From the IMG/VR virus record IMGVR_UViG_2728369181_000005: a stretch of DNA of 55,128 nucleotides; one strand, given 5' to 3'. The DNA comes from a virus. Lineage: Duplodnaviria > Heunggongvirae > Uroviricota > Caudoviricetes. Position 1 is the stretch's first letter. Every line of letters starts with the position of its first letter. Positions 4,476 to 55,128 of the stretch are shown piece by piece. A program made the position numbers and the translations under genes. Under the pieces are notes generated by a model, which was not told the origin of the DNA, did no database searches, and was given only the letters and a program-made list of their open reading frames with translations.

Positions 4476-4480
4476 CCGTT

Positions 4481-11435: not shown

Positions 11436-11466
11436 TTATCAGATTCATTTTTTGAATCAAACAACT

Positions 11467-12780: not shown

Positions 12781-12981
12781 ATGATGTATTCAGTAACTTT
12801 CGATGAAACTGGACGAGTAGAAGATATTGAACTAGAGCGTGAGGTTAGAGCCGGAGATAGACTCTCGCTTAATATTGATGGTCTTGATGGTATTTATATA
12901 GTCATGACTGTTAGCGGCCCTATCTATGAAAATGTTTGTGTGCCAATGAATATCCGGGTTCAAAAGTATTGGAAGCAATGA
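12781..12981 (+). CDS. Hypothetical small protein
   Basis: 66-codon ORF in the AT-rich cassette. Confidence 0.3.
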   Translation: MMYSVTFDETGRVEDIELEREVRAGDRLSLNIDGLDGIYIVMTVSGPIYENVCVPMNIRVQKYWKQ

Positions 12982-13015
12982 TGTATAATCCCCTCAGATG
13001 ATCGAGGGGATTTTT

Positions 13016-13189
13016 ATGTCAGATTGGAACATTGCAGCAAAACCGCAAGAGGAACGTGACAATGTTAACTTTGACCTTGCTGCGTCTGGTGTTGCATATA
13101 AAGAACGCTCCAAAATTCTCGTCATAGCCGAAGTGGTGATGTGCCAGCAACCAGAGCATCTTTGTGATTACTTCATGGAGCGCGTCTGA
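13016..13189 (+). CDS. Hypothetical small protein
   Basis: ORF with candidate start MSDWNIAAKP; AT-rich cassette. Confidence 0.25.
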   Translation: MSDWNIAAKPQEERDNVNFDLAASGVAYKERSKILVIAEVVMCQQPEHLCDYFMERV

Positions 13190-13261
13190 CTTCTCCATTG
13201 AGCATAGCATCACCCAGCCTAAAACATCTGACCCTAGATATATGAAACAGGAGGAAGATAA

Positions 13262-13894
13262 ATGAAATTCTCTCGAATTGAACAAAGCCCAACAACGGAT
13301 GAGGGTAATTACGTGAAAATCGATCATGACTTTGGCTATTTTCTAGATCCTAATAAAATGGCCTCGATAGCTAACTATGAGGATGAGTCTGCCGCGCTAT
13401 TAAAATTGATGCTAATTCATGAGGACTTTCTTCGGGTTGTTATTGAAAACTTACGACCTGATGGCTCTGAAAAATACAATTCGATAAGAAGCTATAAGTA
13501 TTTTGCGTCAAAGCTGTCTGCCGCAGTTCTGTTAGGGCTGCCTGTCTCGCTTGCAGACGCTATGGCTGAGCTCAACACAATACGTAACAAGTACGCTCAT
13601 AAAATTGAATATGTAATTACAAATGAAGAGGTTGATAAACTCGCAGAATCGATTAAAAACATAAAGTTAGAAGAGATTAACCATGGTGGCTACGTGCATC
13701 AAGTTGTTGAGCCAATTCTCAAGGATGGAATCTACGCTATAGCGTTGATGAAAGAGCTACCTCCTGATCTTGAAGAAAATCGCATTCGTATTTGTAAGTT
13801 AGTCACTAGCGCGCATTGTATGTGTTTGCTCGGGGCCTTCTGGTTAATTAACACTCTGCACGTAAAGGGTAAGCTCAAGCTTTCCAAGGCCTGA
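13262..13894 (+). CDS. Hypothetical protein with HEPN-like R-x4-H motif (candidate defence gene)
   Basis: 210 aa with strong AGGAGG SD; AT-rich; contains NTIRNKYAHK (R-N-K-Y-A-H), comparable to RNKLGDAHG in the island protein at 37096-37857. Confidence 0.55.
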   Translation: MKFSRIEQSPTTDEGNYVKIDHDFGYFLDPNKMASIANYEDESAALLKLMLIHEDFLRVVIENLRPDGSEKYNSIRSYKYFASKLSAAVLLGLPVSLADAMAELNTIRNKYAHKIEYVITNEEVDKLAESIKNIKLEEINHGGYVHQVVEPILKDGIYAIALMKELPPDLEENRIRICKLVTSAHCMCLLGAFWLINTLHVKGKLKLSKA

Positions 13895-13946
13895 GTAGAT
13901 CAATCGTGTCATTTTCGCAAAATTGATTCTCCGTAATCAATTCGCC

Positions 13947-14062
13947 ATAATTGTATCACCGGAGCCTGAACAACTTCGGTGACTTCTGCGCTAAACGGGG
14001 ACGTTTATGCGCACACACAATCCAAACTCTCTTCTCCCTTCACAGATGCAGAAATGCACCTG
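13947..14062. repeat. Right copy of the ~115-bp imperfect direct repeat
   Basis: See 11467-11582; ends just before the ninB ribosome-binding site. Confidence 0.85.
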
Positions 14063-14104
14063 CAATTCTTTGCATCTAACGTTTGACCTCTGCGGAGGTG
14101 AAGC

Positions 14105-14560
14105 GTGAACCTCTCACAAGACGGCATCAAATTACATCGCGGCAACTTCACCGCTATCGGCCAGCAGATCCAGCCTTATCTGGAGGAAGGCAAATGCTTT
14201 CGCATGGTGCTTAAACCGTGGCGTGAGAAACGCAGTCTTTCCCAGAATGCACTCAGCCACATGTGGTACAGCGAAATCAGTGAATACCTCATCAGCAGGG
14301 GGAAATCGTTCGCTACCGCAGCATGGGTAAAAGATGCTCTCAAACACACATACCTCGGTTATGAAACCAAGGACCTGGTTGATGTCGTAACCGGCGAAAT
14401 CACTACTATCCAGTCGTTACGCCATACCTCCGATCTCGATACCGGAGAGATGTATGTCTTCCTGTGTAAGGTTGAAGCCTGGGCGGTGAATATTGGCTGC
14501 CACCTGACTATTCCGCAGAGCTGCGAGTTCCAGCTGCTGCGCGACAAGCAGGAGGCGTAA
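14105..14560 (+). CDS. ninB: NinB-family recombination protein
   Basis: GTG start with GGAGG SD; [13 protein letters not shown] parallels the NRSLDQNRKLWA segment of lambda NinB; nin-region position. Confidence 0.75.
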
Positions 14561-14722
14561 TGGCTACACCGCTTATTCGTGTCATGAACGGACACATCTA
14601 CAGAGTACCAAATCGTCGTAAGCGTAAGCCTGAGCTGAAACCATCCGAAATACCAACACTGCTCGGATATACCGCCAGCCTGGTTGATAAAAAATGGTTG
14701 CGACTGGCAGCAAGGAGGAATC

Positions 14723-15013
14723 ATGGCTGATTTGAGAAAAGCAGCGCGTGGTCGGGAATGCCAGGTAAGAATCCCTGGCGTATGTAATGGCAACCCTGAA
14801 ACGTCTGTACTGGCACATATCCGGCTGGCTGGATTGTGCGGCACCGGTATTAAACCGCCAGACCTGATTGCCACCATTGCATGTTCTGCCTGTCACGATG
14901 AGATCGACCGTCGCACGAATTTTGTTGACGCTGGATATGCAAAAGAATGCGCGCTGGAAGGTATGGCGAGAACGCAGGTTATCTGGCTGAAAGAGGGGGT
15001 AATTAAGGCGTGA
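14723..15013 (+). CDS. YbcO-like protein (DUF1364, Cys/His-rich putative nuclease)
   Basis: Start [23 protein letters not shown]...; CxxC/H pattern; closely matches DLP12 YbcO as recalled. Confidence 0.75.
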
Positions 15014-15372
15014 ATACTTACAGCATCACATTACCCTGGCCTCCGAGCAATAATCGCTATTACCGCCATAATCGCGGGCGCACGCACATCAGCGCAGAGG
15101 GGCAGGCATACCGCGATAACGTCGCCCGAATCATCAAAGGCTCCATGCTGGATATCGGCCTGGCTATGTCAGTGAAAATCCGTATTGAGTGCCACATGCC
15201 GGATCGCCGTCGCCGTGACCTGGATAATCTGCAAAAAGCCGCTTTTGACGCACTCACCAAAGCAGGTTTCTGGCTGGATGATGTTCAGGTCGTTGATTAC
15301 CGTGTTGTGAAGATGCCCGTTACCAAAGGTGGGAAGCTGGAGCTGACCATCACCGAAATGGGGAATGAATGA
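15010..15372 (+). CDS. rusA: Holliday-junction resolvase RusA
   Basis: 120 aa ([18 protein letters not shown]...) matching the RusA family; ATGA-style overlap with upstream gene. Confidence 0.9.
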
Positions 15373-15509
15373 TGTTTGAGTTTTATATGGCAGAACGTCT
15401 TCGCCACCGCTGGATGCGCCTGCGCTTATATCGTTTTCCTGGTTCTGTTTTGGCCGATTACCGGATACTGAAGAATTACGCCAAAACACTGAAAGGAGCA
15501 TGTGTATGA
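15369..15509 (+). CDS. Small ORF (YlcG-like, 46 aa)
   Basis: ATG overlapping the rusA stop; [23 protein letters not shown]...; resembles the DLP12 small protein between rusA and Q as recalled. Confidence 0.35.
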
Positions 15510-15594
15510 AGTCAGAGATAACAATCGACTAATACTGTTTTGTTGTTTTTTGCTTTTAATTGGAGTTCTGGCCTGATTTTTGTGGAGTAAGTTG

Positions 15595-15978
15595 ATGCGT
15601 GATGTTCAGATGGTTCTTGAGCGTTGGGGGGCGTGGGCAGCTAATAATCATGAAGATGTGACCTGGTCGTCCATTGCTGCCGGTTTTAAGGGATTAATTC
15701 CTTCAAAAGTAAAATCTCGCCCGCAATGTTGTGACGATGACGCGATGATCATTTGCGGGTGCATGGCCCGTCTGAAAAAGAACAACAGCGATTTACACGA
15801 TTTATTAGTAGATTATTATGTATGTGGTATGACATTCATGTCACTGGCAAGTAAGCATTGCTGCTCGGATGGTTATATCGGGAAAAGGTTACAGAAGGCT
15901 GAGGGCATAATTGAAGGGATGTTAATGGCATTAGATATCCGGTTAGATATGGATATCGTTGCTAATAATTCTAATTGA
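15595..15978 (+). CDS. Q: Late-gene antiterminator Q (DLP12 QuuD / phage 82-type)
   Basis: [26 protein letters not shown]... with a Cys-rich zinc-binding region; position before the lysis cassette. Confidence 0.85.
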
Positions 15979-16010
15979 TATGCAATTGTTTACTAAAAGT
16001 TATTAAAAAT

Positions 16011-16028
16011 GGGGCGTGGAAACGCCCC
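16011..16028 (-). terminator. Rho-independent terminator downstream of the porin gene
   Basis: GGGGCG-TGGAAA-CGCCCC hairpin followed on the minus strand by ATTTTTAAT. Confidence 0.5.
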
Positions 16029-16115
16029 CAAAATAAAGGGTAATATATAACAGAAGGTTTATATAGTAAGAAGCAAGGTAGTGCTTCTAAAGGAAGTGGC
16101 TTGAGGGCTCCACTT

Positions 16116-16156
16116 ATATGTTGCGGAGGCAAAGCCTCCCGCAACATATCTTTTTC
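16116..16156 (+). terminator. Rho-independent terminator after Q
   Basis: 15-16-bp stem ATATGTTGCGGAGGC / GCCTCCCGCAACATAT with AAA loop, followed by CTTTTTC. Confidence 0.55.
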
Positions 16157-16166
16157 GTAAGTCAGA

Positions 16167-17249
16167 TTAGAACTGATAAACCAGACCTACAGCGACGATG
16201 TCGTCGGTATCAATACCAGCTGTTTTGGTAAACTTACTATCGTCAATTAAGTTGATTTTGTAATCAACAAAAGTGGACATGTTTTTATTAAAGTAGTAAG
16301 TAGCACCGACATCGACATACTTGACTAAGTCTCGGTCACCATGAACACCAAGGTCTTTACCTTTTGACTGAAGGTAAGCAACAGATGGGCGCAGACCGAA
16401 GTCAAACTGATATTGTGCTACTGCTTCAAAGTTTTGTGCTTTGTTTGCAATATGGTTATTACCAAAAACGGTCATATTCTGAGTTTCAGAATATGTGGTA
16501 GCCAGATAGATATTGTTCGCATCATATTTCAGGCCTGCAGCCCATACTTCCGCATTTTTGCCGGAGGCATTGAATTTGCTCTTACCATAGGCGACCTGAC
16601 CGTCAGTGCGATCTGATTTAGCATAGGTTGCACCCACGCCGAATCCTTCATACTCATAAGTAGTGGAGAAACCGAAACCATCACCATTGGCTTCAGTTAC
16701 GTCAGTGCGGTCATTTTTACCCTGATACTGAGCAGCAAAGTTCAGGCCATCGACCAGACCAAAGAAGTCGTTGTTACGATAAGTTGCAACACCAGTAGTG
16801 CGACCAGTCATGAACACATCTGTTTGGGTCCAGGTATCACCACCGAATTCTGGCAGAACGTCAGTCCACGCACCGATGTCGTATGCTACACCGTAGTTAC
16901 GGCCGTAATCGATTGAGCCGTAATCACCAAATTTCAGGCCTGCAAATGCAAGACGGGTTTTGTCTTTGGAAGAACCTTGAGATTCAGCACGGTTGCCTTT
17001 GAATTCATATTCCCACTGACCGAAACCAGTCAGTTGATCGTTGATTTGGGTTTCACCTTTGAAGCCAAGACGGGCATAAGTAGTATCACCATCATCTGCA
17101 TCATTAGAGGAGAAGTAGTGCTTGGCATTAACTTTCCCGTATAGATCCAGCTTGTTACTGTCTTTATTATAAATTTCAGCTGCCTGAGCAGACATCGCCA
17201 TCAGTACTGATGCAGCTACAGCAGAAATTGCCACTGTTAATTTTTTCAT
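16167..17249 (-). CDS. nmpC: OmpC-family general porin (NmpC/Lc-type prophage porin)
   Basis: Signal peptide [23 protein letters not shown], porin hallmarks (AEIYNKD..., C-terminal ...VAVGLVYQF); opposite strand to flanking phage genes. Confidence 0.9.
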
Positions 17250-17675
17250 TGTACGCCCTTTTTTTGAACTATTATAAAAAAATGATGTCACTGCGCGATA
17301 AATATTCATCTAATCAATGTGATTATTTCAAGATGTAAGTTTTAGTTTCTCATTTAATTTGTGAAGTAGATCTCTATTTTTATCTGAACCTTTTCTATCT
17401 AATCCTATTCATAGCTCTTGTCTGAACAAAAATAAATCTATTAGCTAATTTATATTAATGGCACTTATTTATAAGTGCTCTATAATTCTTTAGCTTAATT
17501 TAAACAAACTAAAAATAACATCGGAAATTATTGACTGGTTATTTGTTGAAGTTTTCTTATGCATTTGTGGTGGTGTTTTGAACACTCGGTGGCATTCTCA
17601 CAAATATCATTTAGTAGTTTACGTACGTAAAAAATTGGTTATGCTGTTAAGAGTGGTTACTTCGTCACACAGCTT

Positions 17676-17708
17676 AAACCCGCCGTCGAGCGGGTTTTTC
17701 CATTTTTT
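17676..17708 (+). terminator. tR'-like rho-independent terminator upstream of the lysis genes
   Basis: AAACCCGC-CGTCGA-GCGGGTTT hairpin followed by TTCCATTTTTT; about 130 bp before the holin start. Confidence 0.6.
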
Positions 17709-17837
17709 GAGTCTCGATATTAGCTGATAACCCAATACCTGAGTTATTCACTGACTCCGAATCTGTTACGTTTCTGCCTTTATTGCGATACGTAGTATCC
17801 CCTTAATTTACACCCGCTTTGTCTGCGAGGTGGGGTT

Positions 17838-18053
17838 ATGAAATCCATGGATAAGTTAACAACGGGTGTCGCCTATGGTACCTCAGCAGGTAGTGCCGGG
17901 TACTGGTTTTTACAGTTGCTCGATAAAGTCACGCCCTCACAGTGGGCGGCAATAGGTGTGCTGGGTAGCCTGGTATTTGGCCTGCTGACGTACCTGACAA
18001 ACCTTTATTTCAAGATTAAAGAAGATAAGCGCAAGGCTGCGAGAGGTGAATAA
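17838..18053 (+). CDS. S: Holin (phage 21 S / EssD type)
   Basis: 71 aa, [26 protein letters not shown]... with TM segments and charged C-terminus. Confidence 0.9.
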
Positions 18054-21640: not shown

Positions 21641-25332
<3,692 letters not shown>

Positions 25333-25352: not shown

Positions 25353-26650
25353 TCTCCCGCATATTGCCAGCATGGCCTTTAATGAGCCGCTGATGCTTGA
25401 ACCCGCCTATGCGCGGGTTTTCTTTTGTGCGCTTGCAGGCCAGCTTGGGATCAGCCGCCTGACGGATGCGGTGTCCGGCGACAGCCTGACTGCCCAGGAG
25501 GCACCCGCGACGCTGGCATTATCCGGTGATGATGACGGACCACGACAGGCCCGCAGTTATCAGGTCATGAACGGCATCGCCGTGCTGCCGGTGTCCGGCA
25601 CGCTGGTCAGCCGGACGCGGGCGCTGCAGCCGTACTCGGGGATGACCGGTTACAACGGCATTATCGCCCGTCTGCAACAGGCTGCCAGCGACCCGATGGT
25701 GGACGGCATTCTGCTCGATATGGACACACCGGGCGGAATGGTGGCGGGAGCATTTGACTGCGCTGACATCATCGCCCGTGTGCGTGACATAAAGCCGGTA
25801 TGGGCGCTGGCCAACGACATGAACTGCAGTGCAGGTCAGCTGCTTGCCAGTGCCGCCTCCCGACGTCTGGTCACGCAGACCGCCCGGACAGGCTCCATCG
25901 GCGTCATGATGGCTCACAGTAATTACGGCGCTGCGCTGGAGAAACAGGGCGTGGAAATCACGCTGATTTACAGCGGCAGCCATAAGGTGGATGGCAACCC
26001 CTACAGCCATCTACCGGATGATGTCCGGGAAACACTGCAGTCCCGGATGGATGCAACCCGCCGGATGTTTGCACAGAAGGTGTCGGCATATACCGGCCTG
26101 TCCGTGCAGGCTGTGCTGGATACCGAGGCTGCAGTGTACCGCGGTCAGGAGGCCATTAATGCCGGACTGGCTGATGAACTTGTTAACAGCACCGATGCGA
26201 TCACCGTCATGCGTGATGCGCTGGATGCACGTAAATCCCGTCTCTCAGGAGGGCGAATGACCAAAGAGACTCAATCAACAACTGTTTCAGCCACTGCTTT
26301 GCAGGCTGACGTTACTGACGTGGTGCCAGCGACGGAGGGTGAAAACGCCAGCGCGGCGCAGCCGGACGTGAACGCGCAGATCACCGCAGCGGTTGCGGCA
26401 GAAAACAGCCGCATTATGGGGATCCTCAACTGTGAGGAGGCTCACGGACGCGAAGAACAGGCTCGCGTGCTGGCAGAAACTCCCGGTATGACCGTGGAAA
26501 CGGCCCGNNNNNNNNNNNNNNNNNNNNNNNNNNNNNNNNNNNNNNNNGTGACACTGCGCTGGATCGTCTGATGCAGGGGGCACCGGCACCGCTGGCTGCA
26601 GGTAACCCGGCATCTGATGCCGTTAACGATTTGCTGAACACACCAGTGTA
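25333..26650 (+). CDS. C: Head protease/scaffold protein C (Nu3 nested in frame)
   Basis: GTG start at 25333 (VTAELRNLPHIASMAF...) as in lambda C; N-run 26508-26547 inside; true stop TAA 26648-26650. Confidence 0.9.
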
Positions 26651-42193: not shown

Positions 42194-44776
42194 ACCGGTA
42201 GGCGATCTGGTCGTTGATTTGAGTCTGGATGCGGCCAGATTTGACGAGCAGATGGCCAGAGTCAGGCGTCATTTTTCCGGTACGGAAAGTGATGCGAAAA
42301 AAACAGCGGCAGTCGTTGAACAGTCGCTGAGCCGACAGGCGCTGGCTGCACAGAAAGCGGGGATTTCCGTCGGGCAGTATAAAGCCGCCATGCGTATGCT
42401 GCCTGCACAGTTCACCGACGTGGCCACGCAGCTTGCAGGCGGGCAAAGTCCGTGGCTGATCCTGCTGCAACAGGGTGGTCAGGTTAAGGACTCCTTCGGC
42501 GGGATGATCCCCATGTTCCGGGGGCTTGCCGGTGCGATCACCCTGCCGATGGTGGGGGCCACCTCGCTGGCGGTGGCGACCGGTGCGCTGGCGTATGCCT
42601 GGTATCAGGGCAACTCAACCCTGTCCGATTTCAACAAAACGCTGGTCCTTTCCGGCAATCAGGCGGGACTGACGGCAGATCGTATGCTGGTCCTGTCCAG
42701 AGCCGGGCAGGCGGCAGGGCTGACGTTTAACCAGACCAGCGAGTCACTCAGCGCACTGGTCAAGGCGGGGGTAAGCGGTGAGGCTCAGATTGCGTCCATC
42801 AGCCAGAGTGTGGCGCGTTTCTCCTCTGTATCCGGCGTGGAGGTGGACAAGGTCGCTGAAGCCTTCGGGAAGCTGACCACAGACCCGACGTCGGGGCTGA
42901 CGGCGATGGCACGCCAGTTCCATAACGTGACGGCGGAGCAGATTGCGTATGTTGCTCAGTTGCAGCGTTCCGGCGATGAAGCCGGGGCATTGCAGGCGGC
43001 GAACGAGGCCGCAACGAAGGGGTTTGATGACCAGACCCGCCGCCTGAAAGAGAACATGGGCACGCTGGAGACCTGGGCAGAGAGGACAGCGCGGGCATTC
43101 AAATCCATGTGGGATGCGGTGCTGGATATTGGTCGTCCTGATACCGCGCAGGAGATGCTGATTAAGGCAGAGGCTGCGTTTAAGAAAGCAGACGACATCT
43201 GGAATCTGCGCAAGGATGATTATTTTGTTAACGATGAAGCGCGGGCGCGTTACTGGGATGATCGTGAAAAGGCCCGTCTTGCGCTTGAAGCCGCCCGAAA
43301 GAAGGCTGAGCAGCAGACTCAACAGGACAAAAATGCGCAGCAGCAGAGCGATACCGAAGCGTCACGGCTGAAATATACCGAAGAGGCGCAGAAGGCTTAC
43401 GAACGGCTGCAGACGCCGCTGGAGAAATATACCGCCCGTCAGGAAGAACTGAACAAGGCACTGAAAGACGGGAAAATCCTGCAGGCGGATTACAACACGC
43501 TGATGGCGGCGGCGAAAAAGGATTATGAAGCGACGCTGAAAAAGCCGAAACAGTCCGGCGTGAAGGTGTCTGCGGGCGATCGTCAGGAAGACAGTGCTCA
43601 TGCTGCCCTGCTGACGCTTCAGGCAGAACTCCGGACGCTGGAGAAGCATGCCGGAGCGAATGAGAAAATCAGCCAGCAGCGCCGGGATTTGTGGAAGGCG
43701 GAGAGTCAGTTCGCGGTACTGGAGGAGGCGGCGCAACGTCGCCAGCTGTCTGCACAGGAGAAATCCCTGCTGGCGCATAAAGATGAGACGCTGGAGTACA
43801 AACGCCAGCTGGCTGCACTTGGCGACAAGGTCACCTATCAGGAGCGCCTGAACGCGCTGGCGCAGCAGGCGGATAAATTCGCACAGCAGCAACAGGCAAA
43901 ACGGGCCGCCATTGATGCGAAAAGCCGGGGGCTGACTGACCGGCAGGCAGAACGGGAAGCCACGGAACAGCGCCTGAAGGAACAGTATGGCGATAATCCG
44001 CTGGCGCTGAATAACGTCATGTCAGAGCAGAAAAAGACCTGGGCGGCTGAAGACCAGCTTCGCGGGAGCTGGATGGCAGGCCTGAAGTCCGGCTGGAGTG
44101 AGTGGGAAGAGAGCGCCACGGACAGTATGTCGCAGGTTAAAAGTGCAGCCACGCAGACCTTTGATGGTATTGCACAGAATATGGCGGCGATGCTGACCGG
44201 CAGTGAGCAGAACTGGCGCAGCTTCACCCGTTCCGTACTGTCCATGATGACAGAAATTCTGCTTAAGCAGGCAATGGTGGGGATTGTCGGGAGTATCGGC
44301 AGCGCCATTGGCGGGGCTGTTGGTGGCGGCGCATCCGCGTCAGGCGGAACAGCCATTCAGGCAACTGCGGCGNNNNNNNNNNNNNNNNNNNNNNNNNNNN
44401 NNNNNNNNNNTTTGCGACCGGGGGATTTACGGGAACCGGCGGCAAATATGAGCCAGCGGGGATTGTTCACCGTGGTGAGTTTGTCTTCACGAAGGAGGCA
44501 ACCAGCCGGATTGGCGTGGGGAATCTCTACCGGCTGATGCGCGGCTATGCCACCGGTGGTTATGTCGGTACACCGGGCAGTCTGGCTGACAGCCGGTCGC
44601 AGGCGTCCGGGACGTTTGAGCAGAATAACCATGTGGTGATTAACAACGACGGCACGAACGGGCAGATAGGTCCGGCTGCTCTGAAGGCGGTGTATGACAT
44701 GGCCCGCAAGGGTGCCCGTGATGAAATTCAGACACAGATGCGTGATGGTGGCCTGTTCTCCGGAGGTGGACGATGA
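42186..44776 (+). CDS. H: Tape measure protein H (interrupted by an assembly gap)
   Basis: Long coiled-coil protein matching lambda gpH; N-run 44373-44410 breaks the apparent frame; C-terminus continues to 44776. Confidence 0.9.
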
Positions 44777-46814: not shown

Positions 46815-49800
46815 ATCCTCCGGCTCCGAGACGGTGCTGGGTACGGAAGTGAAATATGACACGCCGATCACCCGGACCATCACGTCGGCAAACATCGACC
46901 GTCTGCGCTTTACCTTCGGTGTACAGGCACTGGNNNNNNNNNNNNNNNNNNNNNNNNNNNNNNNNNNNNNNNNNNNNNNNNNNNNNNNNNNNNNNNNAGA
47001 CAGGAATCCGTCGGAAGTTCGCCTGCTGGTTCAGATACAGCGTAACGGTGGCTGGGTGACGGAAAAAGACATCACCATTAAGGGCAAAACCACCTCGCAG
47101 TATCTGGCCTCGGTGGTGGTGGATAACCTGCCGCCGCGCCCGTTTAATATCCGGATGCGCAGGATGACGCCGGACAGCACCACAGACCAGCTGCTGAACA
47201 AAACGCTCTGGTCGTCATACACCGAAATCATCGATGTGAAACAGTGCTACCCGAACACGGCACTGGTTGGCGTGCAGGTGGACTCGGAGCAGTTCGGCAG
47301 CCAGCAGGTGAGCCGTAATTATCATCTTCGCGGGCGCATTCTGCAGGTGCCGTCGAACTATAACCCGCAGACGCGGCAATACAGCGGTATCTGGGACGGA
47401 ACGTTAAAACCGGCATACAGCAACAACATGGCCTGGTGTCTGTGGGATATGCTGACCCATCCGCGCTACGGCATGGGGAAACGTCTTGGTGCGGCGGATG
47501 TGGATAAATGGGCGCTGTATGTCATCGGCCAGTACTGCGACCAGTCGGTGCCGGACGGCTTTGGCGGCACGGAGCCGCGCATTACCTGTAATGCGTACCT
47601 GACCACACAGCGCAAGGCGTGGGATGTGCTCAGTGATTTCTGCTCGGCGATGCGCTGTATGCCGGTATGGAACGGGCAGACGCTGACGTTCGTGCAGGAC
47701 CGACCATCAGATAAGGTGTGGACCTATAACCGCAGTAATGTGGTGATGCCGGATGATGGCGCGCCGTTCCGCTACAGCTTCAGCGCCCTGAAGGACCGCC
47801 ATAATGCCGTTGAGGTGAACTGGATTGACCCGGATAACGGCTGGGAGACGGCGACAGAGCTCGTGGAGGATACGCAGGCCATTGCCCGTTACGGCCGTAA
47901 CGTCACGAAGATGGATGCCTTTGGCTGTACCAGCCGGGGGCAGGCACACCGCGCCGGGCTGTGGCTGATTAAAACGGAGCTGCTGGAAACGCAGACCGTG
48001 GACTTCAGCGTGGGTGCTGAAGGGCTTCGCCATGTACCGGGGGATGTCATTGAAATCTGCGATGATGACTATGCCGGTATCAGCACCGGTGGTCGTGTGC
48101 TGGCGGTGAACAGCCAGACCCGGACGCTGACGCTCGACCGTGAAATCACGCTGCCATCCTCCGGTACCACGCTGATAAGCCTGGTTGACGGAAGTGGCAA
48201 TCCGGTCAGCGTGGAGGTTCAGTCCGTCACCGACGGCGTGAAGGTGAAAGTGAGCCGTGTTCCTGACGGTGTTGCTGAATACAGCGTATGGGGGCTGAAG
48301 CTGCCGACGCTGCGCCAGCGACTGTTCCGCTGCGTGAGTATCCGTGAAAACGACGACGGCACGTATGCCATCACCGCCGTGCAGCATGTGCCGGAAAAAG
48401 AGACCATCGTGGATAACGGGGCGCACTTTGACGGCGAACAGAGTGGCACGGTGAATGGTGTCACGCCGCCCGCGGTGCAGCACCTGACCGCAGAAGTCAC
48501 CGCAGACAGCGGGGAATATCAGGTGCTGGCGCGATGGGACACACCGAAGGTGGTGAAGGGGGTGAGCTTTATGCTTCGCCTGACCGTGGCAGCGGATGAC
48601 GGCAGTGAGCGGCTGGTCAGCACGGCCAGGACGACGGAAACCACATACCGCTTCAGGCAACTGGCGCTGGGGAACTACAGGCTGACAGTCCGGGCGGTAA
48701 ATGCGTGGGGGCAGCAGGGGGATCCGGCGTCGGTATCGTTCCGGATTGCCGCACCGGCAGCGCCATCGCGGATTGAGCTGACGCCGGGCTATTTTCAGAT
48801 AACCGCCACGCCGCATCTTGCCGTTTATGATCCGACGGTACAGTTTGAGTTCTGGTTCTCGGAAAAGCGGATTGCGGATATCAGGCAGGTTGAAGCCAGC
48901 GCGCGTTATCTTGGTACGGCGCTGTACTGGATAGCCGCCAGTATCAATATCAAACCGGGCCATGATTATTATTTTTACATTCGCAGTGTGAACACCGTTG
49001 GCAAATCGGCATTTGTGGAGGCTGTTGGCCAGCCGAGTGATGATGCATCCGGCTATCTGGATTTTTTCAAAGGAGAGATAGGGAAAACCCATCTGGCTCA
49101 GGAGTTGTGGACGCAGATTGATAACGGTCAGCTTGCGCCTGACCTGGCTGAAATCAGGACGTCCATTACGGATGTCAGCAATGAAATCACGCAGACCGTC
49201 AATAAGAAACTGGAAGACCAGAGTGCAGCGATCCAGCAGATACAGAAGGTTCAGGTTGATACAAATAATAACCTGAACAGCATGTGGGCTGTGAAGCTGC
49301 AGCAGATGCAGGACGGACGCCTTTATATCGCGGGTATTGGTGCCGGTATTGAGAATACCCCTGACGGTATGCAGAGTCAGGTGCTGCTGGCGGCGGACAG
49401 GATTGCGATGATTAATCCTGCGAATGGCAATACAAAGCCGATGTTTGTTGGGCAGGGCGATCAGATATTCATGAACGAAGTGTTCCTGAAATATCTGACG
49501 GCTCCCACCATTACCAGCGGTGGCAATCCCCCAACGTTTTCACTGACACCTGATGGTCGACTTTCTGCGAGAAATGCGGATATCAGCGGTAACGTGAATG
49601 CGAACTCCGGGACGCTCAATAATGTCACGATTAACCAGAACTGTCGGATTCTGGGAAAACTGTCAGCTAACCAGATTGAAGGTGATATTGTCAAAACGGT
49701 GGGAAAAGCCTTTCCGAGAAATGGCAGTTATGCCAGCGGTACAATAACGGTCACTGTGTACGATGACCAGGCTTTTGACCGTCAGATAGTCGTCCCCCCC

Positions 49801-50069
49801 GTTCTGTTTCGCGGTGGTAAGCATGAAAACTTCAACAGCAACAACCAACAGTCATACTGGTATTCAACCTGTAAGCTGCANNNNNNNNNNNNNNNNNNNN
49901 NNNNNNNNNNNNNNNNNNNNNNNNNNNNNNNNNNNNNNNNNNNNNNNNNNNNNNNNNNNNNNNNNNNNNNNNNNNNNNNNNNNNAAATAACTGGACGCCA
50001 ACGACCAGTATCAGCGACCTTCTTGTTGTCGTGATGAAGAAATCAACAGCCGGCATCAGTATCAGTTGA
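46801..50069 (+). pseudogene. J: Central tail fibre / host-specificity protein J, 5'-truncated, with two assembly gaps
   Basis: Homology to lambda gpJ begins at PEGFESSGSETVLGTEVKYD (about 85 residues into J as recalled) with no start codon nearby; N-runs at 46924-46997 and 49881-49984; C-terminal receptor-binding region diverges from lambda. Confidence 0.7.
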
Positions 50070-50127: not shown

Positions 50128-52188
50128 ATGGCAGTACAGATTTCAGGTGTGCTGAAAGACGGTGCAGGAAAACCGATACAGAACTGCACCATTCAGCTCA
50201 AAGCAAAACGTAACAGCACCACAGTTGTGGTGAACACGGTGGCCTCAGAAAATCCGGATGAAGCCGGACGTTACAGCATGGATGTTGAGTATGGCCAGTA
50301 CAGCGTCGCCCTGCTGGTTGAAGGTTTTCCGCCTTCACATGCCGGGACCATCACCGTGTATGAGGATTCTAAGCCGGGGACATTGAATGATTTTCTGGGC
50401 GCTGCAACAGAAGATGATGTTTGTCCGGAGGCACTGTATCGTTTTGAAAAGATGGTGGAAGAGGCGGCACGCAACGCTGAAGCCGCCTCTCAGAGCGCAG
50501 CGGCAGCAAAGAAATCAGAAACAGCAGCGGCATCGTCCAGGAACGCGGCGAAAACATCAGAGACGAATGCAGGTAACAGCGCGAAAGCGGCAGCTTCTTC
50601 AAAAACAGCCGCACAAAACGCAGCAACAGCGGCAGAACGTTCAGAGACAAATGCCCGTGCGTCAGAAGAAGCCTCCGCAGACAGTGAAGAGGCTTCCCGC
50701 CGTAATGCAGAGTCAGCCGCTGAAAATGCCGGAGTCGCCACCACAAAAGCGCGGGAGGCCGCAGCAGACGCAACAAAGGCCGGGCAGAAAAAGGATGAGG
50801 CTCTGTCGGCAGCGACACGGGCTGAAAAGGCGGCAGACCGTGCAGAAGCCGCAGCGGAAGTGACGGCAGAGCCTTATGCGAATATAGTGCCGCCGCTGCC
50901 TGATGTGTGGATACCGTTTAACGATTCACTGGATATGATTGCGGGTTTTTCTCCGGGCTATAAAAAAATAGCTATTGGTGACGATGTGGTTCAGGTCGCC
51001 AGTGATAAACAGGTTAGTTTCACGCGCGCATCAACGGCAACCTATATCAACAAATCTGGTGAACTGAAAACAGCGGAAATTAATGAGCCGCGATTTGAGC
51101 GCGAAGGTCTGCTGATTGAGGGGCAAAGAACTAATTACATGCTGAATTCGGAAACTCCGGCCAGTTGGGGCAAGTCGGTAAATATGGATGTTCCCGAAAC
51201 CGGGAAGGATAGTTTTGGTTTTACCTATGGAAAGTTCGTCTGTAACGATTCTCTGATTGGGCAAACCTCAGCTATTAATATGGCATCAATTGCTGCAACA
51301 AAGTCAGTTGATGTCTCAGGCGATAATAAGTACGTGACAACCTCATGCCGTTTTAAAACAGAACGACAGGTAAGGTTACGTATACGGTTTGATAAGTATG
51401 ATGGTAGTGCAACAACTTTTCTTGGCGATGCGTACATTGATACGCAAACGCTTGAAATTAATATGACAGGTGGTGCTGCCGGCAGAATTACGGCACGAGT
51501 CAGGAAGGATAAGACCACAGGCTGGATTTTTGCAGAGGCAACGATTCAGGCAATTGATGGTGAGTTAAAAATAGGCTCTCAGATACAGTATTCTCCTGAG
51601 CGGGGTGGGGCAACAGTATCTGGTGACTATATTTATCTTGCCACCCCACAAGTAGAGAATGGGCCGTGTGTATCATCATTTATTATTTCAGGAGGCAGCG
51701 CAACGACAAGAGCCAGTGATTTGGTTAGTATCCCCACCAGAAATAATCTTTATAAGTTACCATTTACTTTTTCACTTGAGATTCATAAAAACTGGGATAT
51801 TGCACCAAACGCCGCACCCCGCGTGTGGGATATAGCAGCAGCCAATACCGGGCAATCAGCAATTGCAGCAATCAACAGAGGTAGTGGTAAGTTATATATG
51901 AGTCTGTCAAACCCTTCAGGCTCGTATGTTAATAGCGCAGCGACAGATGTATTTGCAGAGAAAACCACATTTGGATGTATTGCAAAAGCTGATGGTTACT
52001 TTCATGTGGTGACAAATGGTAAAGCGGTTAATGAAGTTTATTGTGAATATAATGGCGTGACCGCTGATAAAAATATCCGATTTGGAGGGCAGACGAATAC
52101 TGGAGAACGACATCTGTTTGGCCATATTCGCAATTTCCGCATATGGCATAAAGAATTAAATGACAGGCAATTAAAAGAGGTCGTATGA
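50128..52188 (+). CDS. stf: Side tail fibre protein (Stf-like)
   Basis: N-terminus MAVQISGVLKDGAGKPIQNCTIQLKAKRNSTTVVVNT... matches the conserved Stf N-terminal domain; Ala/Ser-rich repeat shaft; divergent C-terminus. Confidence 0.8.
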   Translation: MAVQISGVLKDGAGKPIQNCTIQLKAKRNSTTVVVNTVASENPDEAGRYSMDVEYGQYSVALLVEGFPPSHAGTITVYEDSKPGTLNDFLGAATEDDVCPEALYRFEKMVEEAARNAEAASQSAAAAKKSETAAASSRNAAKTSETNAGNSAKAAASSKTAAQNAATAAERSETNARASEEASADSEEASRRNAESAAENAGVATTKAREAAADATKAGQKKDEALSAATRAEKAADRAEAAAEVTAEPYANIVPPLPDVWIPFNDSLDMIAGFSPGYKKIAIGDDVVQVASDKQVSFTRASTATYINKSGELKTAEINEPRFEREGLLIEGQRTNYMLNSETPASWGKSVNMDVPETGKDSFGFTYGKFVCNDSLIGQTSAINMASIAATKSVDVSGDNKYVTTSCRFKTERQVRLRIRFDKYDGSATTFLGDAYIDTQTLEINMTGGAAGRITARVRKDKTTGWIFAEATIQAIDGELKIGSQIQYSPERGGATVSGDYIYLATPQVENGPCVSSFIISGGSATTRASDLVSIPTRNNLYKLPFTFSLEIHKNWDIAPNAAPRVWDIAAANTGQSAIAAINRGSGKLYMSLSNPSGSYVNSAATDVFAEKTTFGCIAKADGYFHVVTNGKAVNEVYCEYNGVTADKNIRFGGQTNTGERHLFGHIRNFRIWHKELNDRQLKEVV

Positions 52189-52463
52189 AAGATTTAACTT
52201 TGAAGTTTCATGACAAACTGCAGTTTAAGGCCTTCCTGTCATCTCTTGGCTGGGCGGAAGATGAAGACCTCCAGAATAAACTGTTAGTTGATGAAATTGG
52301 TTTCACCTACACAGAAACAGGGGTAACAGAAGAGGGAGAACCTGTCTGTATCCGGAATGATGGTTATTTTGTCAACATTCGCATTCTTGATGACTTGTTT
52401 GATGTTTCTGTATTCTCTGATTATGTCGTGGAGCTGGAAACACCGCTTCGGGAATGGAGCTGA
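52185..52463 (+). CDS. Hypothetical protein (in the tail-fibre assembly chaperone position, not Tfa-like)
   Basis: 92-codon acidic ORF overlapping the stf stop (ATGA). Confidence 0.4.
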   Translation: MKDLTLKFHDKLQFKAFLSSLGWAEDEDLQNKLLVDEIGFTYTETGVTEEGEPVCIRNDGYFVNIRILDDLFDVSVFSDYVVELETPLREWS

Positions 52464-52475
52464 AAGGAGGAAATA

Positions 52476-52769
52476 ATGGATATAAGCCCCTTACTTCATG
52501 CACTTTGTGCTGTGGCTGCGCAGATACTGGTTGGTCTTTTTACCGGAAACTGGGCTTACGGAGCGATAGCCGGTTGTACGTTCTTCATTGCGCGTGAACA
52601 TACCCAGGCAGAATATCGCTGGATTGAAATGTTCGGGCATGGCAAGCGAATGAATATGCCGTGGTGGGGCGGTTTTGATCCGCGTGCTTGGGATGTGGCA
52701 AGCCTGATGGATTTTGCTGTGCCGGTGGTGGCGTGTCTGCTGGTCTGGGTATTTATCCGTTCAACATAA
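52476..52769 (+). CDS. Hypothetical small membrane protein
   Basis: 97 aa with two hydrophobic segments (LCAVAAQILVGLF..., FAVPVVACLLVWVFI); SD AGGAGG upstream. Confidence 0.4.
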   Translation: MDISPLLHALCAVAAQILVGLFTGNWAYGAIAGCTFFIAREHTQAEYRWIEMFGHGKRMNMPWWGGFDPRAWDVASLMDFAVPVVACLLVWVFIRST

Positions 52770-53110
52770 AAAGTCGCAGCAACTTGTCATGGCGGAATAC
52801 TGCGGCTTGCTGGCGAACCTTTGATAGTTCGGGTATTGAATAATTTCCAGCCATTACTGATTTTATGTATTTTTTGCATGAGAGGATTTGCTCCTCCTTA
52901 CACCGAGCTTACATGATTACACGCTACTGTTTTAGGTGTGCTATGTGCCAGAAGTAGACATAGTTTTATCTTACTTTATGTACAATAAGCTAAGAACTTA
53001 CTTGCGCACTATTTCTGTTAGGTAGTATGAAAAAAATGGGAGTATATTCAATTAGGTATAAACAGGAGTTTCTGATGCATCAGACATATCTTGGATAATT
53101 GGATGTTGAT

Positions 53111-53137
53111 TGATCAGGGTTGCAGCAACCCTGATCA
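53111..53137. promoter_or_regulatory. Perfect 27-bp palindrome (candidate operator)
   Basis: TGATCAGGGTTGC-A-GCAACCCTGATCA, 13-bp arms, in the AT-rich region about 110 bp beyond the OLD-like gene stop; no adjacent U-tract. Confidence 0.4.
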
Positions 53138-53244
53138 GAAATTTCATATTGCTAAATTTAACTCTTATTAATTAATGGAACCATATCACTAATATCCAAT
53201 ATAATTGTAACTTTAAAAGTTACGATAATATAGATTTTAAATTT

Positions 53245-55128
53245 TTACTCCTGAATTCCTGGTAATACTTCCGGTATAATGGTAATTGGGTTTTGGGATG
53301 GGGAGATTTCAAATGGGAAAGTCGTACGCTCAAACAATGGTGAGACTATATCAACTTTAAGCTTAAGCTGTTGCTCAGTAGATTTATTCGTTAATTTGAA
53401 TACTGTTGCATCAACCCCGATGGTAGATCTAGCTAGTGTATCAAGTTCTTGATCGCTACTGTTCAATGTCATTTCAAGCATCACTGGTGTCAACATAGCA
53501 CCGAGCTTCATACGAAGGAGACGATCTTCATCGACAAACTGATTTGGAGCCGTATGATTTAAGGCATCATAAATATCATTATAACACATTGCAAGTTCTT
53601 TCTGAGTTTTAGCATCAAATCCAGCAGCTTCTAGTGCAGCACGATCTGGTTTTCCAGTTCCAATTTCTTCTATCGCCCCGTAATAGTTTTCAATTGCTCC
53701 TCGACGTAAAAAAAAGCACCCAAGATTACTTAATGCCTTCAAAAGCACATTGTATTTTCTACAAAGACTTTCGGCTCGAGAAGATGCTTCTGTACCAAAG
53801 CTTGTTGGATCAGTAAGAATACGAGCTAACGTCACGCGACGTTTGCTATCAGCCCCAGAATCTTTACTTGACCAATTAGGATAACTTTCAGCTGCTATCT
53901 CAACCTCTTCCTTAAAGTCAGTCATGAAGGTTGTAATTTCTGCACGCAAATCTCTGTCAAGATCAGCGAGACTTGTTCTTCCGACTTGGTCTGCAATCGC
54001 CCTAGCTTCTGTTAATCCACTGAAATAGTTGACTAAATTATTATCGTCAGCTAAGGCGTCGAGATCTGCAAGCAAACTAACTCGTTTATTCATCAAGCGA
54101 AACAGTTTGGCAGCTTCGATAAACTCTCCCTTACCAGTAACTGGAAGTATCTGAGCATTACGTGCAAGGAGACGGAGACCGAACTTTCTTGCAAGTTGTG
54201 TTACTATTATTTCATCACTAGGACCTTCGACTAATAAAACATGCTCAGCGAACATAGCTGTTCGATGGGTAGCGCTAAGGCGTGCTATTAATGCGGCCAG
54301 TTTTGTGCTGCAAAGAATATCTGCATTTTTTGGTATCTGAACTGGAGGTTGCTGTGCGGAGTTGAAAAAGATTATTTTTGATAACTCTTCAATTCGTCGC
54401 AGCGGTAGTATTGAAGGTGAATGTGTCGCTATGATTATCATTTTTTTCTTTGGATTTTGAGGATCACCGGCTACCAGTTCCATCTCTTCGAGCAGAAATG
54501 CTTGATGCTGTGGGTGTAGGGAGATTTCTGGCTCATCGATAATCAATGCACCTATTTCGTCATTATGAATTGCAGTTAGTAACGAGACAACCTGCAGTAT
54601 ACCGCTGGCTTCGTGATTAGCTGCGTAGCCATCGCCGCCAGTGACGGATGTTATTCTAATAGTCATTCCATTTTGAGACCACTTGAGCTCAACGCTTCGA
54701 TCAAACAACTGCTGTAGGCGTGCTTCAATCTTTAGTTTGAGGTCTGGTCTCTGGTCTAAGATCATTAAGTCACCAGTAACACTTTCATAATTCCACCATT
54801 GCTCAACGTAACTCGCGTTTCCAATAGCAGCATCGCTAGAATTGATGCCATAAGGAGAATCTGAGCTAGATCTATAGGATTCAAATGGACTACACCGTCC
54901 TGCCGAAAGAAAATGTACTTTTCTATTTTGTCCAATTATTCGGTTTTCACTCAATAATTTTGATTTTATTGCACGCAGTGCTCGGGTTTTACCACTACCA
55001 TTTGGCCCGACCATCGTTGTAATACCTGGTCCGACTTGTATTATCGCTTTTGTGGATGAATTATCGACTAATGAATATTCAACGTCCATCGGCCACATAA
55101 GGTCTTGATCTGCAGTATCTAAGCTCAT
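53245..55128 (-). CDS. OLD-family ATPase-Toprim nuclease (P2 Old / Gabija GajA / PARIS-like)
   Basis: 627 aa; Walker A GPNGSGKT near the N-terminus, LIIDEPEISLHPQ Walker B-like, then Toprim-like VLLVEGPSDE and DLDALADD; AT-rich; start codon sits exactly at the window edge. Confidence 0.7.
   Translation of the reverse strand: MSLDTADQDLMWPMDVEYSLVDNSSTKAIIQVGPGITTMVGPNGSGKTRALRAIKSKLLSENRIIGQNRKVHFLSAGRCSPFESYRSSSDSPYGINSSDAAIGNASYVEQWWNYESVTGDLMILDQRPDLKLKIEARLQQLFDRSVELKWSQNGMTIRITSVTGGDGYAANHEASGILQVVSLLTAIHNDEIGALIIDEPEISLHPQHQAFLLEEMELVAGDPQNPKKKMIIIATHSPSILPLRRIEELSKIIFFNSAQQPPVQIPKNADILCSTKLAALIARLSATHRTAMFAEHVLLVEGPSDEIIVTQLARKFGLRLLARNAQILPVTGKGEFIEAAKLFRLMNKRVSLLADLDALADDNNLVNYFSGLTEARAIADQVGRTSLADLDRDLRAEITTFMTDFKEEVEIAAESYPNWSSKDSGADSKRRVTLARILTDPTSFGTEASSRAESLCRKYNVLLKALSNLGCFFLRRGAIENYYGAIEEIGTGKPDRAALEAAGFDAKTQKELAMCYNDIYDALNHTAPNQFVDEDRLLRMKLGAMLTPVMLEMTLNSSDQELDTLARSTIGVDATVFKLTNKSTEQQLKLKVDIVSPLFERTTFPFEISPSQNPITIIPEVLPGIQE

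What the first reader, a model, noticed from the sequence alone, without database searches (positions are those of the whole stretch)
53245..55128. OLD-family ATPase-Toprim gene beyond the tail-fibre region
The protein has an ABC-type ATPase head (GPNGSGKT, LIIDEPE) fused to a Toprim-like tail (LLVEGPSDE, DLDALADD), as in P2 Old, Gabija GajA and fused PARIS proteins. There is no helicase gene downstream (52770-53244 is non-coding), so it is not a canonical two-gene Gabija unless the partner lies upstream beyond the window. The AT-rich composition and position at the prophage edge fit a defence cargo gene.
Basis: partly seen in the sequence, partly recalled or inferred. Interest (0 to 1): 0.6.

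Follow-up and report, generated by a model that had tools for sequence, protein, structure and literature searches.

The report
Solo OLD-type nuclease on a prophage
The gene is a complete, stand-alone ATP-driven nuclease of the OLD family, carried as an extra gene after the tail fibres of an E. coli prophage; it most likely blocks rival phages, and it belongs to an untested branch that lacks the ATPase insert its studied relatives have.

Summary

The ATG at the window end is the true start. In 27 of 28 complete E. coli genomes with the gene, the DNA beyond it holds a 75-aa ORF, a dinI-like gene, then chromosomal prfC. There is no helicase, reverse transcriptase or AriB.

In about 16 contexts across alpha-, beta- and gamma-proteobacteria the gene is always alone. 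These include lambdoid, Mu-like and P2-like prophages, a P4-like element, defence islands and bare chromosome. By context it is a Class 1 (single-gene) OLD, and most likely an anti-phage cargo gene.

It differs from studied OLDs. The Walker A to Walker B spacing is about 100 residues shorter, leaving no room for the dimerization insert. About 270 residues after the Toprim DxD motif match no Pfam or PADLOC model.

The same prophage encodes lambda-type Gam, so a Gam-triggered mechanism like P2 Old's is unlikely. No function has been tested.

Verdict: a new, architecturally divergent member of a known kind. Interest is moderate.

The parts
53245..55128 (-). Complete coding sequence (627 aa plus stop) of a stand-alone OLD-family ATPase-Toprim nuclease
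54334..55128 (-). ABC-type ATPase head, residues ~1-265. It is compact and has no room for the dimerization insert of studied OLDs.
   Evidence: Pfam. About 190-200 residues superpose on SMC, Rad50, ABC, AriA and PtuA heads. Walker A Lys47 to Walker B Asp198 is 151 residues, against 262 in P2 Old (K37, D299).
54985..55008 (-). Walker A motif GPNGSGKT (residues 41-48)
   Evidence: Sequence. G41, N43, G46 and K47 are invariant in relatives down to 21% identity.
54511..54552 (-). Walker B and D-loop, GALIIDEPEISLHP (residues 193-206)
   Evidence: BLASTP pairs D198 with P2 Old D299 and H205 with P2 Old H306, both needed for P2 Old killing. D198, P200, E201, H205 and P206 are invariant.
54418..54429 (-). 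H-loop ATHS (residues 234-237)
   Evidence: H236 pairs with P2 Old H332. T235 is invariant and H236 is conserved in at least 90%.
54043..54255 (-). Toprim core strands 1-3 (residues 292-362), with the metal-binding acids E301, D305, D355 and D357
   Evidence: PF20469 matches residues 292-357 over the full model. Pairing with P2 Old: E301 = E398, D305 = E402, D355 = D453, D357 = D455. E301 and D357 are invariant; D305 and D355 are conserved in at least 90%.
53725..54042 (-). Helical insert inside the Toprim domain (residues ~363-468); function unknown
   Evidence: The AF2 models show only helices here. No Pfam or PADLOC match. The spacing from the DxD motif to the next catalytic Glu is 123 residues, against 47 in Thermus OLD and 88 in P2 Old.
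53647..53724 (-). Fourth Toprim strand and the GAIENYY...GKP motif (residues 469-494); E480 is the inferred second metal-B ligand and K493 the inferred catalytic lysine
   Evidence: A strand at 471-473 is followed by invariant G477 and E480; K493 is conserved in at least 90%. The assignment rests on position relative to Thermus S478/E480 and P2 D541/E543/K550. It is an inference, not a structural superposition.
53248..53646 (-). C-terminal region (residues 495-627) of helices plus a small three-stranded sheet; conserved across the family, unlike any described domain
   Evidence: AF2 pLDDT is mostly 80-90. No Pfam match. Relatives at 27-60% identity align through to residue ~620.
52770..53244 (.). 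AT-rich non-coding spacer between the last tail-region ORF and the 3' end of the OLD gene; it holds a perfect 27-nt palindrome at 53111-53137
   Evidence: No ORF of 60 aa or more. Palindrome TGATCAGGGTTGC-A-GCAACCCTGATCA. No T-run follows it, and no terminator-like site was scored in the spacer.

Best explanation
This is a prophage-borne, single-gene OLD-family nuclease. It belongs to Class 1 in the context-based scheme and most likely acts as an anti-phage cargo gene expressed from the lysogen.

Proposed mechanism:
1. The N-terminal ABC-type ATPase binds and hydrolyses ATP and acts as sensor and switch.
2. On infection by another phage it releases or activates the C-terminal Toprim domain.
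3. That domain cuts nucleic acid by two-metal catalysis (E301, D355, D357; D305, E480; K493).
4. Phage replication stops or the infected cell is arrested (abortive infection).

Shown here: the domain architecture, conservation of the ATPase and nuclease residues, the absence of any partner gene, and repeated carriage in accessory-gene sites of unrelated mobile elements.

Inferred: the defence role, the substrate (DNA nicking as in Vc OLD or GajA, or tRNA cleavage as in P2 Old), and the trigger. The trigger is probably not Gam-mediated RecBCD inhibition, because the same prophage encodes Gam.

The ATPase head has no room for the dimerization insert, so oligomerisation and auto-inhibition are presumably handled by the family-specific helical insert and C-terminal region.
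For: Identity:
- Pfam AAA_21, AAA_15 and OLD-like_TOPRIM all exceed their cut-offs.
- The best PADLOC models are GajA, AriA and Old.
- The best solved-structure sequence match is the Thermus Class 1 OLD, 6p74.

Likely activity: every P2 Old residue in the aligned core that is required for killing has its counterpart here, namely K47, D198, H205, H236, E301, D305, D355 and D357. These stay invariant or at least 90% conserved in relatives down to 21% identity.

Solo gene:
- No helicase, reverse transcriptase or AriB lies within 8 kb in any of about 16 contexts.
- No small neighbour is shared between contexts.

Mobile and defence association:
- After the tail fibres of two different E. coli lambdoid prophages.
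- After the tail-fibre chaperone of a Mu-like prophage.
- Between gpS and gpV of a P2-like prophage, which is P2's non-essential orf30 site.
- Beside a P4-like primase.
- Beside two reverse-transcriptase genes plus Fic on a TrbL element.
- Beside ubiquitin-like, ThiF and BubE genes.

Other support: low GC relative to the surrounding tail genes. Patchy distribution at 59-85% identity across three proteobacterial classes. Precedent from single-gene OLDs that defend: P2 Old (PMC12445682), Vc OLD (PMC12392090) and YbjD (PMC13261556). Gam, Exo and Bet are encoded in the same window.
Against: - No experiment exists for this protein or family. No paper cites its accessions.
- No homologue was found in 50,697 sequenced phage genomes, and only three close relatives in IMG/VR. 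Carriage is therefore seen only in integrated elements.
- About five of the contexts show no mobile or defence genes nearby ([L004], 19, 79, 80, 81).
- Solo OLD-family proteins are not always defensive. Archaeal Cran1 acts in the cell cycle (PMC12796447), and YbjD's Toprim domain is dispensable for its phenotype.
- P2 Old K400 corresponds to Pro303 here.
- The first residue of the metal-B S/T/D-x-E motif is Ala478, so the active site is not a perfect copy.
- The E480 and K493 assignments are positional inferences.
- Promoter-like sites upstream are no more frequent than in shuffled sequence, so expression in the lysogen is not shown.
Confidence: 0.7

Rival explanations
1. It is one half of a multi-gene OLD system (Gabija GajA with a GajB helicase, a retron effector, or PARIS AriA/AriB) whose partner lies outside the window or elsewhere in the genome.
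Against: - The DNA past the window end holds a 75-aa ORF, dinI-like and then prfC in 27 of 28 genomes, and a methyltransferase in the other.
- No helicase, reverse transcriptase or DUF4435 gene lies within 8 kb in any of about 16 contexts.
- No retron RNA was found by Rfam.
- The GajA matches cover only residues ~180-330.
- No AriB model matches the C-terminal half.
Confidence: 0.04
2. It serves the prophage or the host in ordinary DNA metabolism (repair, recombination, replication control or chromosome handling), as RecF, SbcC and SMC-type ATPases or the archaeal OLD-family protein Cran1 do, rather than in defence.
Against: - Housekeeping models score far below their cut-offs: recF 13.7 vs 172, SMC_N 19.7 vs 40, Rad50 13 vs 847.
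- The gene is present in only 28 of 5426 complete E. coli genomes.
- It is patchily spread at high identity across distant classes, the pattern of an accessory, horizontally moved gene.
- It sits in known non-essential cargo sites of phages.
Confidence: 0.1
3. It is a selfish or toxic element (an addiction or inter-element competition module, or a prophage-maintenance factor) that benefits the mobile element without protecting against phage. Alternatively it is silent cargo with no current function in E. coli.
For: It is AT-rich and could be H-NS silenced. One of the 28 E. coli copies is frameshifted (HB37). The E. coli copies are at least 99.7% identical, so they say little about selection within the species. 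Upstream promoter-like sites are at chance level.
Against: The full length and all catalytic residues are conserved across about 170 clusters at 50% identity, down to 21% identity, which requires purifying selection on an active enzyme. There is no adjacent antitoxin-like gene.
Confidence: 0.12

Closest known systems
Thermus scotoductus OLD (PDB 6P74), the structural archetype of Class 1 OLD nucleases
   Different: The Thermus protein is 528 aa and carries a four-helix dimerization domain inside the ATPase. Here the Walker A to Walker B spacing is about 90 residues shorter. Thermus OLD ends soon after the Toprim domain, whereas this protein has a ~105-residue helical insert and a ~130-residue C-terminal region.
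Phage P2 Old, the founding Class 1 OLD: a prophage-encoded abortive-infection tRNA nuclease
   Same: Both are prophage-borne, stand-alone accessory genes. They share 24% identity over the Walker B to Toprim core, and every mutationally tested catalytic residue in that stretch is matched. P2 Old also has extra residues between the DxD motif and the metal-B motif.
   Different: - P2 Old is 586 aa, with K37 to D299 spanning 262 residues. Its dimerization region locks an auto-inhibited tetramer, and that region has no room here.
- P2 K400 corresponds to Pro here.
- The alignment does not extend into the N-terminal insert or the C-terminal part.
- P2 Old is triggered by Gam and RecBCD loss, but this gene's own prophage encodes Gam.
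- The substrate here is unknown.
GajA of Gabija (Class 2 OLD)
   Different: No GajB helicase is present in any context. The profile matches are partial, covering residues ~180-330. GajA has the dimerization insert.
Vibrio cholerae Vc OLD and E. coli YbjD/OldB (bacterial Class 1 OLDs with anti-phage phenotypes)
   Same: All are single-gene OLD proteins on a mobile or accessory locus. Both known ones act independently of RecBCD (PMC12392090), which is what the Gam argument suggests here.
   Different: YbjD is only remotely similar (hhalign probability 69.5%). The Vc OLD phylogeny kept only proteins of 500-600 aa, so this 610-645 aa family was filtered out of it.

Membership tests
OLD family nucleases (ABC ATPase + Toprim) | N-terminal ABC-type ATPase with Walker A, signature-like motif, Walker B, D-loop His and H-loop His | tested here: met
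   GPNGSGKT 41-48, EASGILQ 173-179, LIIDEPE 195-201, H205 and H236. Pfam AAA_21 and AAA_15 exceed their cut-offs. The residues are invariant or nearly so. The head superposes on ABC, SMC and Rad50 heads.
OLD family nucleases (ABC ATPase + Toprim) | C-terminal OLD-type Toprim domain with metal A ligands (Glu, DxD) and the first metal-B acid | tested here: met
OLD family nucleases (ABC ATPase + Toprim) | Second metal-B motif (S/T/D-x-E) and a basic catalytic residue after the fourth Toprim strand | tested here: inconclusive
   A-I-E480 follows strand 471-473. E480 is invariant and K493 is conserved in at least 90%. The first position is Ala rather than Ser, Thr or Asp. The assignment is positional because model coordinates could not be inspected.
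OLD family nucleases (ABC ATPase + Toprim) | Dimerization domain inserted in the ATPase domain (seen in Thermus OLD, GajA and P2 Old) | tested here: not met
   K47 to D198 is 151 residues, against 262 in P2 Old and about 240-250 in Thermus OLD and GajA as read from the alignments. Between the Walker A strand and the signature motif the model has only a disordered loop (79-103) and three short helices. This rests on spacing and a predicted model.
Class 1 OLD (single-gene) | Stands alone: no UvrD-like helicase downstream and no reverse transcriptase or ncRNA adjacent | tested here: met
   About 16 contexts were examined. No neighbour is shared between them. Rfam finds no retron RNA.
Class 1 OLD (single-gene) | Length of about 500-600 aa, the cut-off used for Class 1 in PMC12392090 | tested here: not met
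   This protein is 627 aa, and full-length relatives are 610-647 aa. The criterion is quoted.
Class 1 OLD (single-gene) | Anti-phage activity that depends on the ATPase and nuclease residues | not testable with these tools
   This needs phage challenge of the cloned gene and its point mutants.
Class 2 OLD / Gabija GajA | [quoted passage not shown] | tested here: not met
   No helicase is present in any context.
Class 3 OLD / retron effector (Eco8 type) | Adjacent retron reverse transcriptase and msr/msd RNA, and a match to the Eco8 effector model | tested here: not met
   NF038234 scores 37.8 bits against a cut-off of 250. The E. coli locus has no RT gene and no Rfam retron hit. The two RT genes in the Aeromonas locus lie 2.6 kb or more away, separated by three other genes.
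Class 4 OLD / PARIS (AriA + AriB, or fused) | An AriB-type DUF4435 Toprim, either as a neighbouring gene or as the C-terminal half | tested here: not met
RecF / SbcC / SMC housekeeping ATPases | A match above the curated cut-off, and no Toprim domain | tested here: not met
   recF scores 13.7 vs 172, SMC 13.4 vs 567, Rad50 13 vs 847, and SMC_N 19.7 vs 40. A Toprim domain is present.

The most novel reading that the evidence does not exclude
This family may be a separate architectural class of OLD nucleases. It would have a compact ABC head without the dimerization 'lock', with control and assembly moved to a Toprim-embedded helical insert and a new C-terminal domain. Its infection signal would differ from Gam/RecBCD loss, and it would spread as a one-gene cassette into the cargo sites of lambdoid, Mu-like, P2-like and P4-like elements across three proteobacterial classes. 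If so, it would show a second way to keep an OLD nuclease switched off, and would add a single-gene OLD defence to the few tested so far.
Probability: 0.3. Interest if true: 0.6.

Novelty: new member of a known kind. Interest (0 to 1): 0.42.

Why it matters
Single-gene OLD nucleases are rare (0.45% of genomes, per PMC12392090) and little understood. Only P2 Old, Vc OLD and YbjD have phenotypes, and those three differ in substrate and trigger.

This family has about 170 clusters at 50% identity and is highly conserved over its full length. It appears to lack the ATPase insert that forms the auto-inhibitory lock in P2 Old. It also rides on a phage that makes Gam, the very protein that sets off P2 Old.

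Testing it would address three questions:
- How an OLD nuclease is restrained without that insert.
- What it senses.
- Whether it cuts DNA or tRNA.

It also marks the stretch after the tail fibres of lambdoid prophages as a place where such cargo sits. The finding is a good candidate for experiment, but it does not change the picture by itself.

Tried and rejected
- **Two-gene Gabija with the partner beyond the window:** rejected after reading the flank in 28 E. coli genomes and 8-kb flanks of homologues.
- **Fused PARIS:** rejected, because no AriB or DUF4435 match exists in the C-terminal half.
- **Retron effector:** rejected.
- **RecF/SbcC/SMC housekeeping role:** rejected on curated cut-offs.
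- **A conserved small partner** (the divergent 75-aa ORF, or small ORFs next to homologues): an all-against-all BLAST found no shared family. The only hit was a pair of Aeromonas paralogues. The 75-aa, 92-aa and 97-aa ORFs have no Pfam match.
- **Homologues in sequenced phages:** none by megablast or tblastn.
- **Literature on this protein's accessions:** none found.
- **Promoter and terminator scans:** at chance level.
- **A wrong assumption, corrected:** I first took the window to be collinear with strain JNE25-003. One search showed that the left ~18 kb differ. The window runs from its own integrase to the OLD start codon.
Full report
**1. The observation**

Window 53245-55128 on the minus strand is a single 627-aa ORF. 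It begins with an ATG at the very last bases of the window.
- GPNGSGKT, residues 41-48.
- LIIDEPE, residues 195-201.
- LLVEGPSDE, residues 298-306.
- DLDALADD, residues 355-362.

Pfam assigns AAA_21 (62 bits), AAA_15 (51 bits) and OLD-like_TOPRIM PF20469 (51 bits, whole model, residues 292-357), all above the curated cut-offs. The spacer 52770-53244 has no ORF of 60 aa or more. GC falls to 0.38-0.42, against 0.55-0.61 in the tail genes.

**2. Start codon and the DNA beyond the window**

A complete E. coli genome (NZ_AP045053.1) is 100% identical over 52100-55128. There the ORF cannot be extended upstream, and RefSeq annotates the same 627-aa product ('ATP-dependent nuclease', WP_061335757.1). 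An AAGGA ribosome-binding site lies 6 nt before the ATG. Homologues start at the same alignment column.

Past the start codon lie a divergent 75-aa ORF with no Pfam match, a dinI-like gene, and then chromosomal prfC.

The gene is present in 28 of 5426 complete E. coli genomes, always on the chromosome and at least 99.7% identical. Twenty-seven have this prfC junction. One (CFSAN018748) carries the gene after the tail fibres of a different lambdoid prophage next to ompT. One copy is frameshifted.

The window itself runs from the prophage integrase (1-1143, minus strand) to this start codon. Its left ~18 kb are not collinear with the JNE25-003 prophage.

**3. What the protein is**

*Sequence.* The best solved-structure match is the Class 1 OLD of Thermus scotoductus (6p74, E 3e-9), followed by GajA. 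PADLOC gives partial matches to GajA (76 bits), AriA (67) and Old (63). No NCBIfam model reaches its cut-off: Eco8 effector 37.8 vs 250, recF 13.7 vs 172.

*Structure.* An AlphaFold2 model built on 30 homologues has mean pLDDT 79.
- Foldseek against the PDB returns GajA, Thermus OLD and Eco8 OLD.

*Catalytic residues.* P2 Old (taken from AF063097) aligns at 24% identity over 169 residues (hhalign probability 96.7%). The alignment pairs every residue in the aligned stretch that Schiltz et al. showed to be required for P2 Old killing:

| P2 Old | This protein |
|---|---|
| D299 | D198 |
| H306 | H205 |
| H332 | H236 |
| E398 | E301 |
| E402 | D305 |
| D453 | D355 |
| D455 | D357 |

In relatives down to 21% identity, G41, N43, G46, K47, D198, H205, E301, D357, G477 and E480 are invariant. 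H236, D305, D355 and K493 are conserved in at least 90%. Both enzymatic halves are therefore under selection.

**4. How it differs from studied OLDs**

*ATPase head.* The distance from the Walker A lysine to the Walker B aspartate is 151 residues. It is 262 in P2 Old, and about 240-250 in Thermus OLD and GajA as read from the printed alignments. The model shows only a disordered loop and three short helices in that interval. There is no room for the four-helix dimerization domain described for Thermus OLD. A 2026 preprint describes that domain as the lock of the auto-inhibited P2 Old tetramer.

*Toprim and C-terminus.* Between the DxD motif and the next invariant glutamate (E480) lie 123 residues of helices, against 47 in Thermus OLD and 88 in P2 Old. 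Another ~130 residues follow. Residues 361-627 match nothing in Pfam, even at E up to 10, and nothing in PADLOC beyond the Toprim core.

*Family size and length.* An exhaustive search of 1.84 billion cluster representatives finds 169 clusters at E up to 1e-30, and 351 at E up to 1e-10. The full-length ones are 610-647 aa and align through to residue ~620. The phylogeny in the Vc OLD paper kept only proteins of 500-600 aa, so this family was not in it.

*Caveats.* The assignment of E480 as a metal-B ligand and K493 as the basic catalytic residue is positional and unverified. Ala478 replaces the usual Ser, Thr or Asp. Pro303 replaces P2 K400.

**5. Genomic context of relatives**

Close full-length homologues (59-85% identity) occur patchily in Enterobacter, Cronobacter, Citrobacter, Aeromonas, Achromobacter, Burkholderia, Rhizobiales and Acetobacteraceae. 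The gene is alone in every locus read:
- After the tail-fibre chaperone at the end of a Mu-like prophage.
- Between gpS and gpV of a P2-like prophage, the site of P2's non-essential orf30.
- A few kb from lambdoid gpJ and tail-fibre genes, beyond three sugar-metabolism genes (L005).
- At a Burkholderia prophage end.
- Beside a P4-like primase and an Ash protein.
- Near an integrase.
- Beside two reverse-transcriptase genes, Fic and TrbL.
- Beside ubiquitin-like, ThiF and BubE genes.
- Five times among ordinary chromosomal genes.

No small neighbour recurs. No helicase, retron or AriB gene is present. No homologue was found in 50,697 sequenced phage genomes.

**6. Mechanism**

The best-supported reading is a single-gene OLD-family anti-phage nuclease carried as prophage cargo. 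The ABC ATPase acts as sensor and switch, and the Toprim domain is a two-metal nuclease whose activation stops phage replication or arrests the cell.

The substrate is open. Vc OLD and GajA nick DNA (PMC12392090, PMC8136825). P2 Old removes the anticodon arm of tRNAs (PMC12445682).

The window gives one clue about the trigger. The same prophage encodes Exo (3016-3693), Bet (3693-4475) and a full-length lambda-type Gam (4484-4777, Pfam 217 bits). P2 Old is set off by Gam or by loss of RecBCD. A gam-positive phage carrying such a sensor would risk aborting its own induction. I therefore infer a different trigger, or a phage-encoded brake. This is inference only.

Confidence is about 0.95 that this is an OLD-family ATPase-Toprim enzyme, and about 0.7 that it acts in phage defence in the way described.

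**7. Rivals**

- A missing partner gene is essentially excluded by context.
- A housekeeping or phage DNA-metabolism role is unlikely, given the rarity, patchy spread and cargo-site locations. It is not excluded: Cran1 and the dispensable Toprim of YbjD are warnings, and five contexts show no mobile element.
- A selfish or silent element remains possible in E. coli itself. Family-wide conservation of catalytic residues argues for an active enzyme.

**8. Comparison and novelty**

By the context-based scheme this is a Class 1 OLD. It fails two descriptive features of that class as studied so far: the 500-600 aa length and the dimerization insert. Its Toprim motif is GajA-like.

I file it as a new, uncharacterised member of a known kind. 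There is a reasonable chance (about 0.3) that it deserves to be treated as a distinct architectural class.

Interest is moderate. It is a clean, compact candidate for experiments on how OLD nucleases are controlled, but nothing here overturns current understanding.

Noticed in passing
window 3016-4777 (- strand): The same prophage encodes lambda-type Exo (YqaJ domain), Bet (RecT family) and a full-length Gam (Pfam Gam, 217 bits). Gam is the classic trigger of P2 Old, so its presence beside an OLD-family gene suggests a different trigger or a self-protection mechanism.
   Followed up: partly
window 5559-7132 (- strand): A DUF3037 protein (280 aa) and a HipA_2-type kinase (250 aa) overlap as a pair between the recombination genes and the repressor region. 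They are a possible second cargo, toxin-antitoxin or defence module on this prophage.
   Followed up: partly
window 53111-53137: A perfect 27-nt palindrome (TGATCAGGGTTGC-A-GCAACCCTGATCA) lies about 108 nt downstream of the OLD stop codon in the AT-rich spacer. No T-run follows it on either strand, so it is not a standard terminator.
   Followed up: partly
L001 15054-15106 (outside the window, just upstream of the ATG at window 55128): A promoter-like site (TTATCA-16-TATTAT with an upstream TG) is followed by an 8-bp inverted repeat, GTTCAAAT-attg-ATTTGAAC, between it and the AAGGA ribosome-binding site. The repeat could be an operator. The promoter scan as a whole was at chance level.
   Followed up: no
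window 23001-23059, 26508-26547, 44373-44410, 46934-46997, 49881-49984: There are five runs of N (38-104 bases) in the window. Two fall inside the gpJ-like tail-tip ORF, which therefore translates with runs of X.
   Followed up: no
window 1-18000 versus L012: The window's early region (int, xis, exo, bet, gam, HipA, repressor) does not match the early region of the JNE25-003 prophage, which carries the identical OLD gene. The tail-fibre-OLD end is therefore shared between mosaic lambdoid prophages. The window starts exactly at the integrase gene and ends exactly at the OLD start codon.
   Followed up: partly
L005 7168-7839; L008 3938-4642; L020 9288-10034: An SRAP (YedK-like, SOS-response-associated peptidase) gene lies within 0.2-3.4 kb of the OLD homologue in three unrelated loci (Citrobacter, Burkholderia and an IMG/VR contig). 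This may only reflect that both sit near the ends of mobile elements.
   Followed up: no
window 52185-52769 (+ strand): Two small ORFs (92 aa, and 97 aa with hydrophobic stretches) lie between the tail-fibre gene and the spacer and have no Pfam match. The CFSAN018748 prophage, which carries the OLD gene at another chromosomal site, has a hypothetical ORF of the same length (294 nt) at the position of the 97-aa one.
   Followed up: partly
L012 12475-13503 (JNE25-003 prophage, next to its integrase): A 342-aa hypothetical protein with no Pfam match lies right after the integrase of the related prophage. It is another possible cargo gene at the opposite prophage end.
   Followed up: partly
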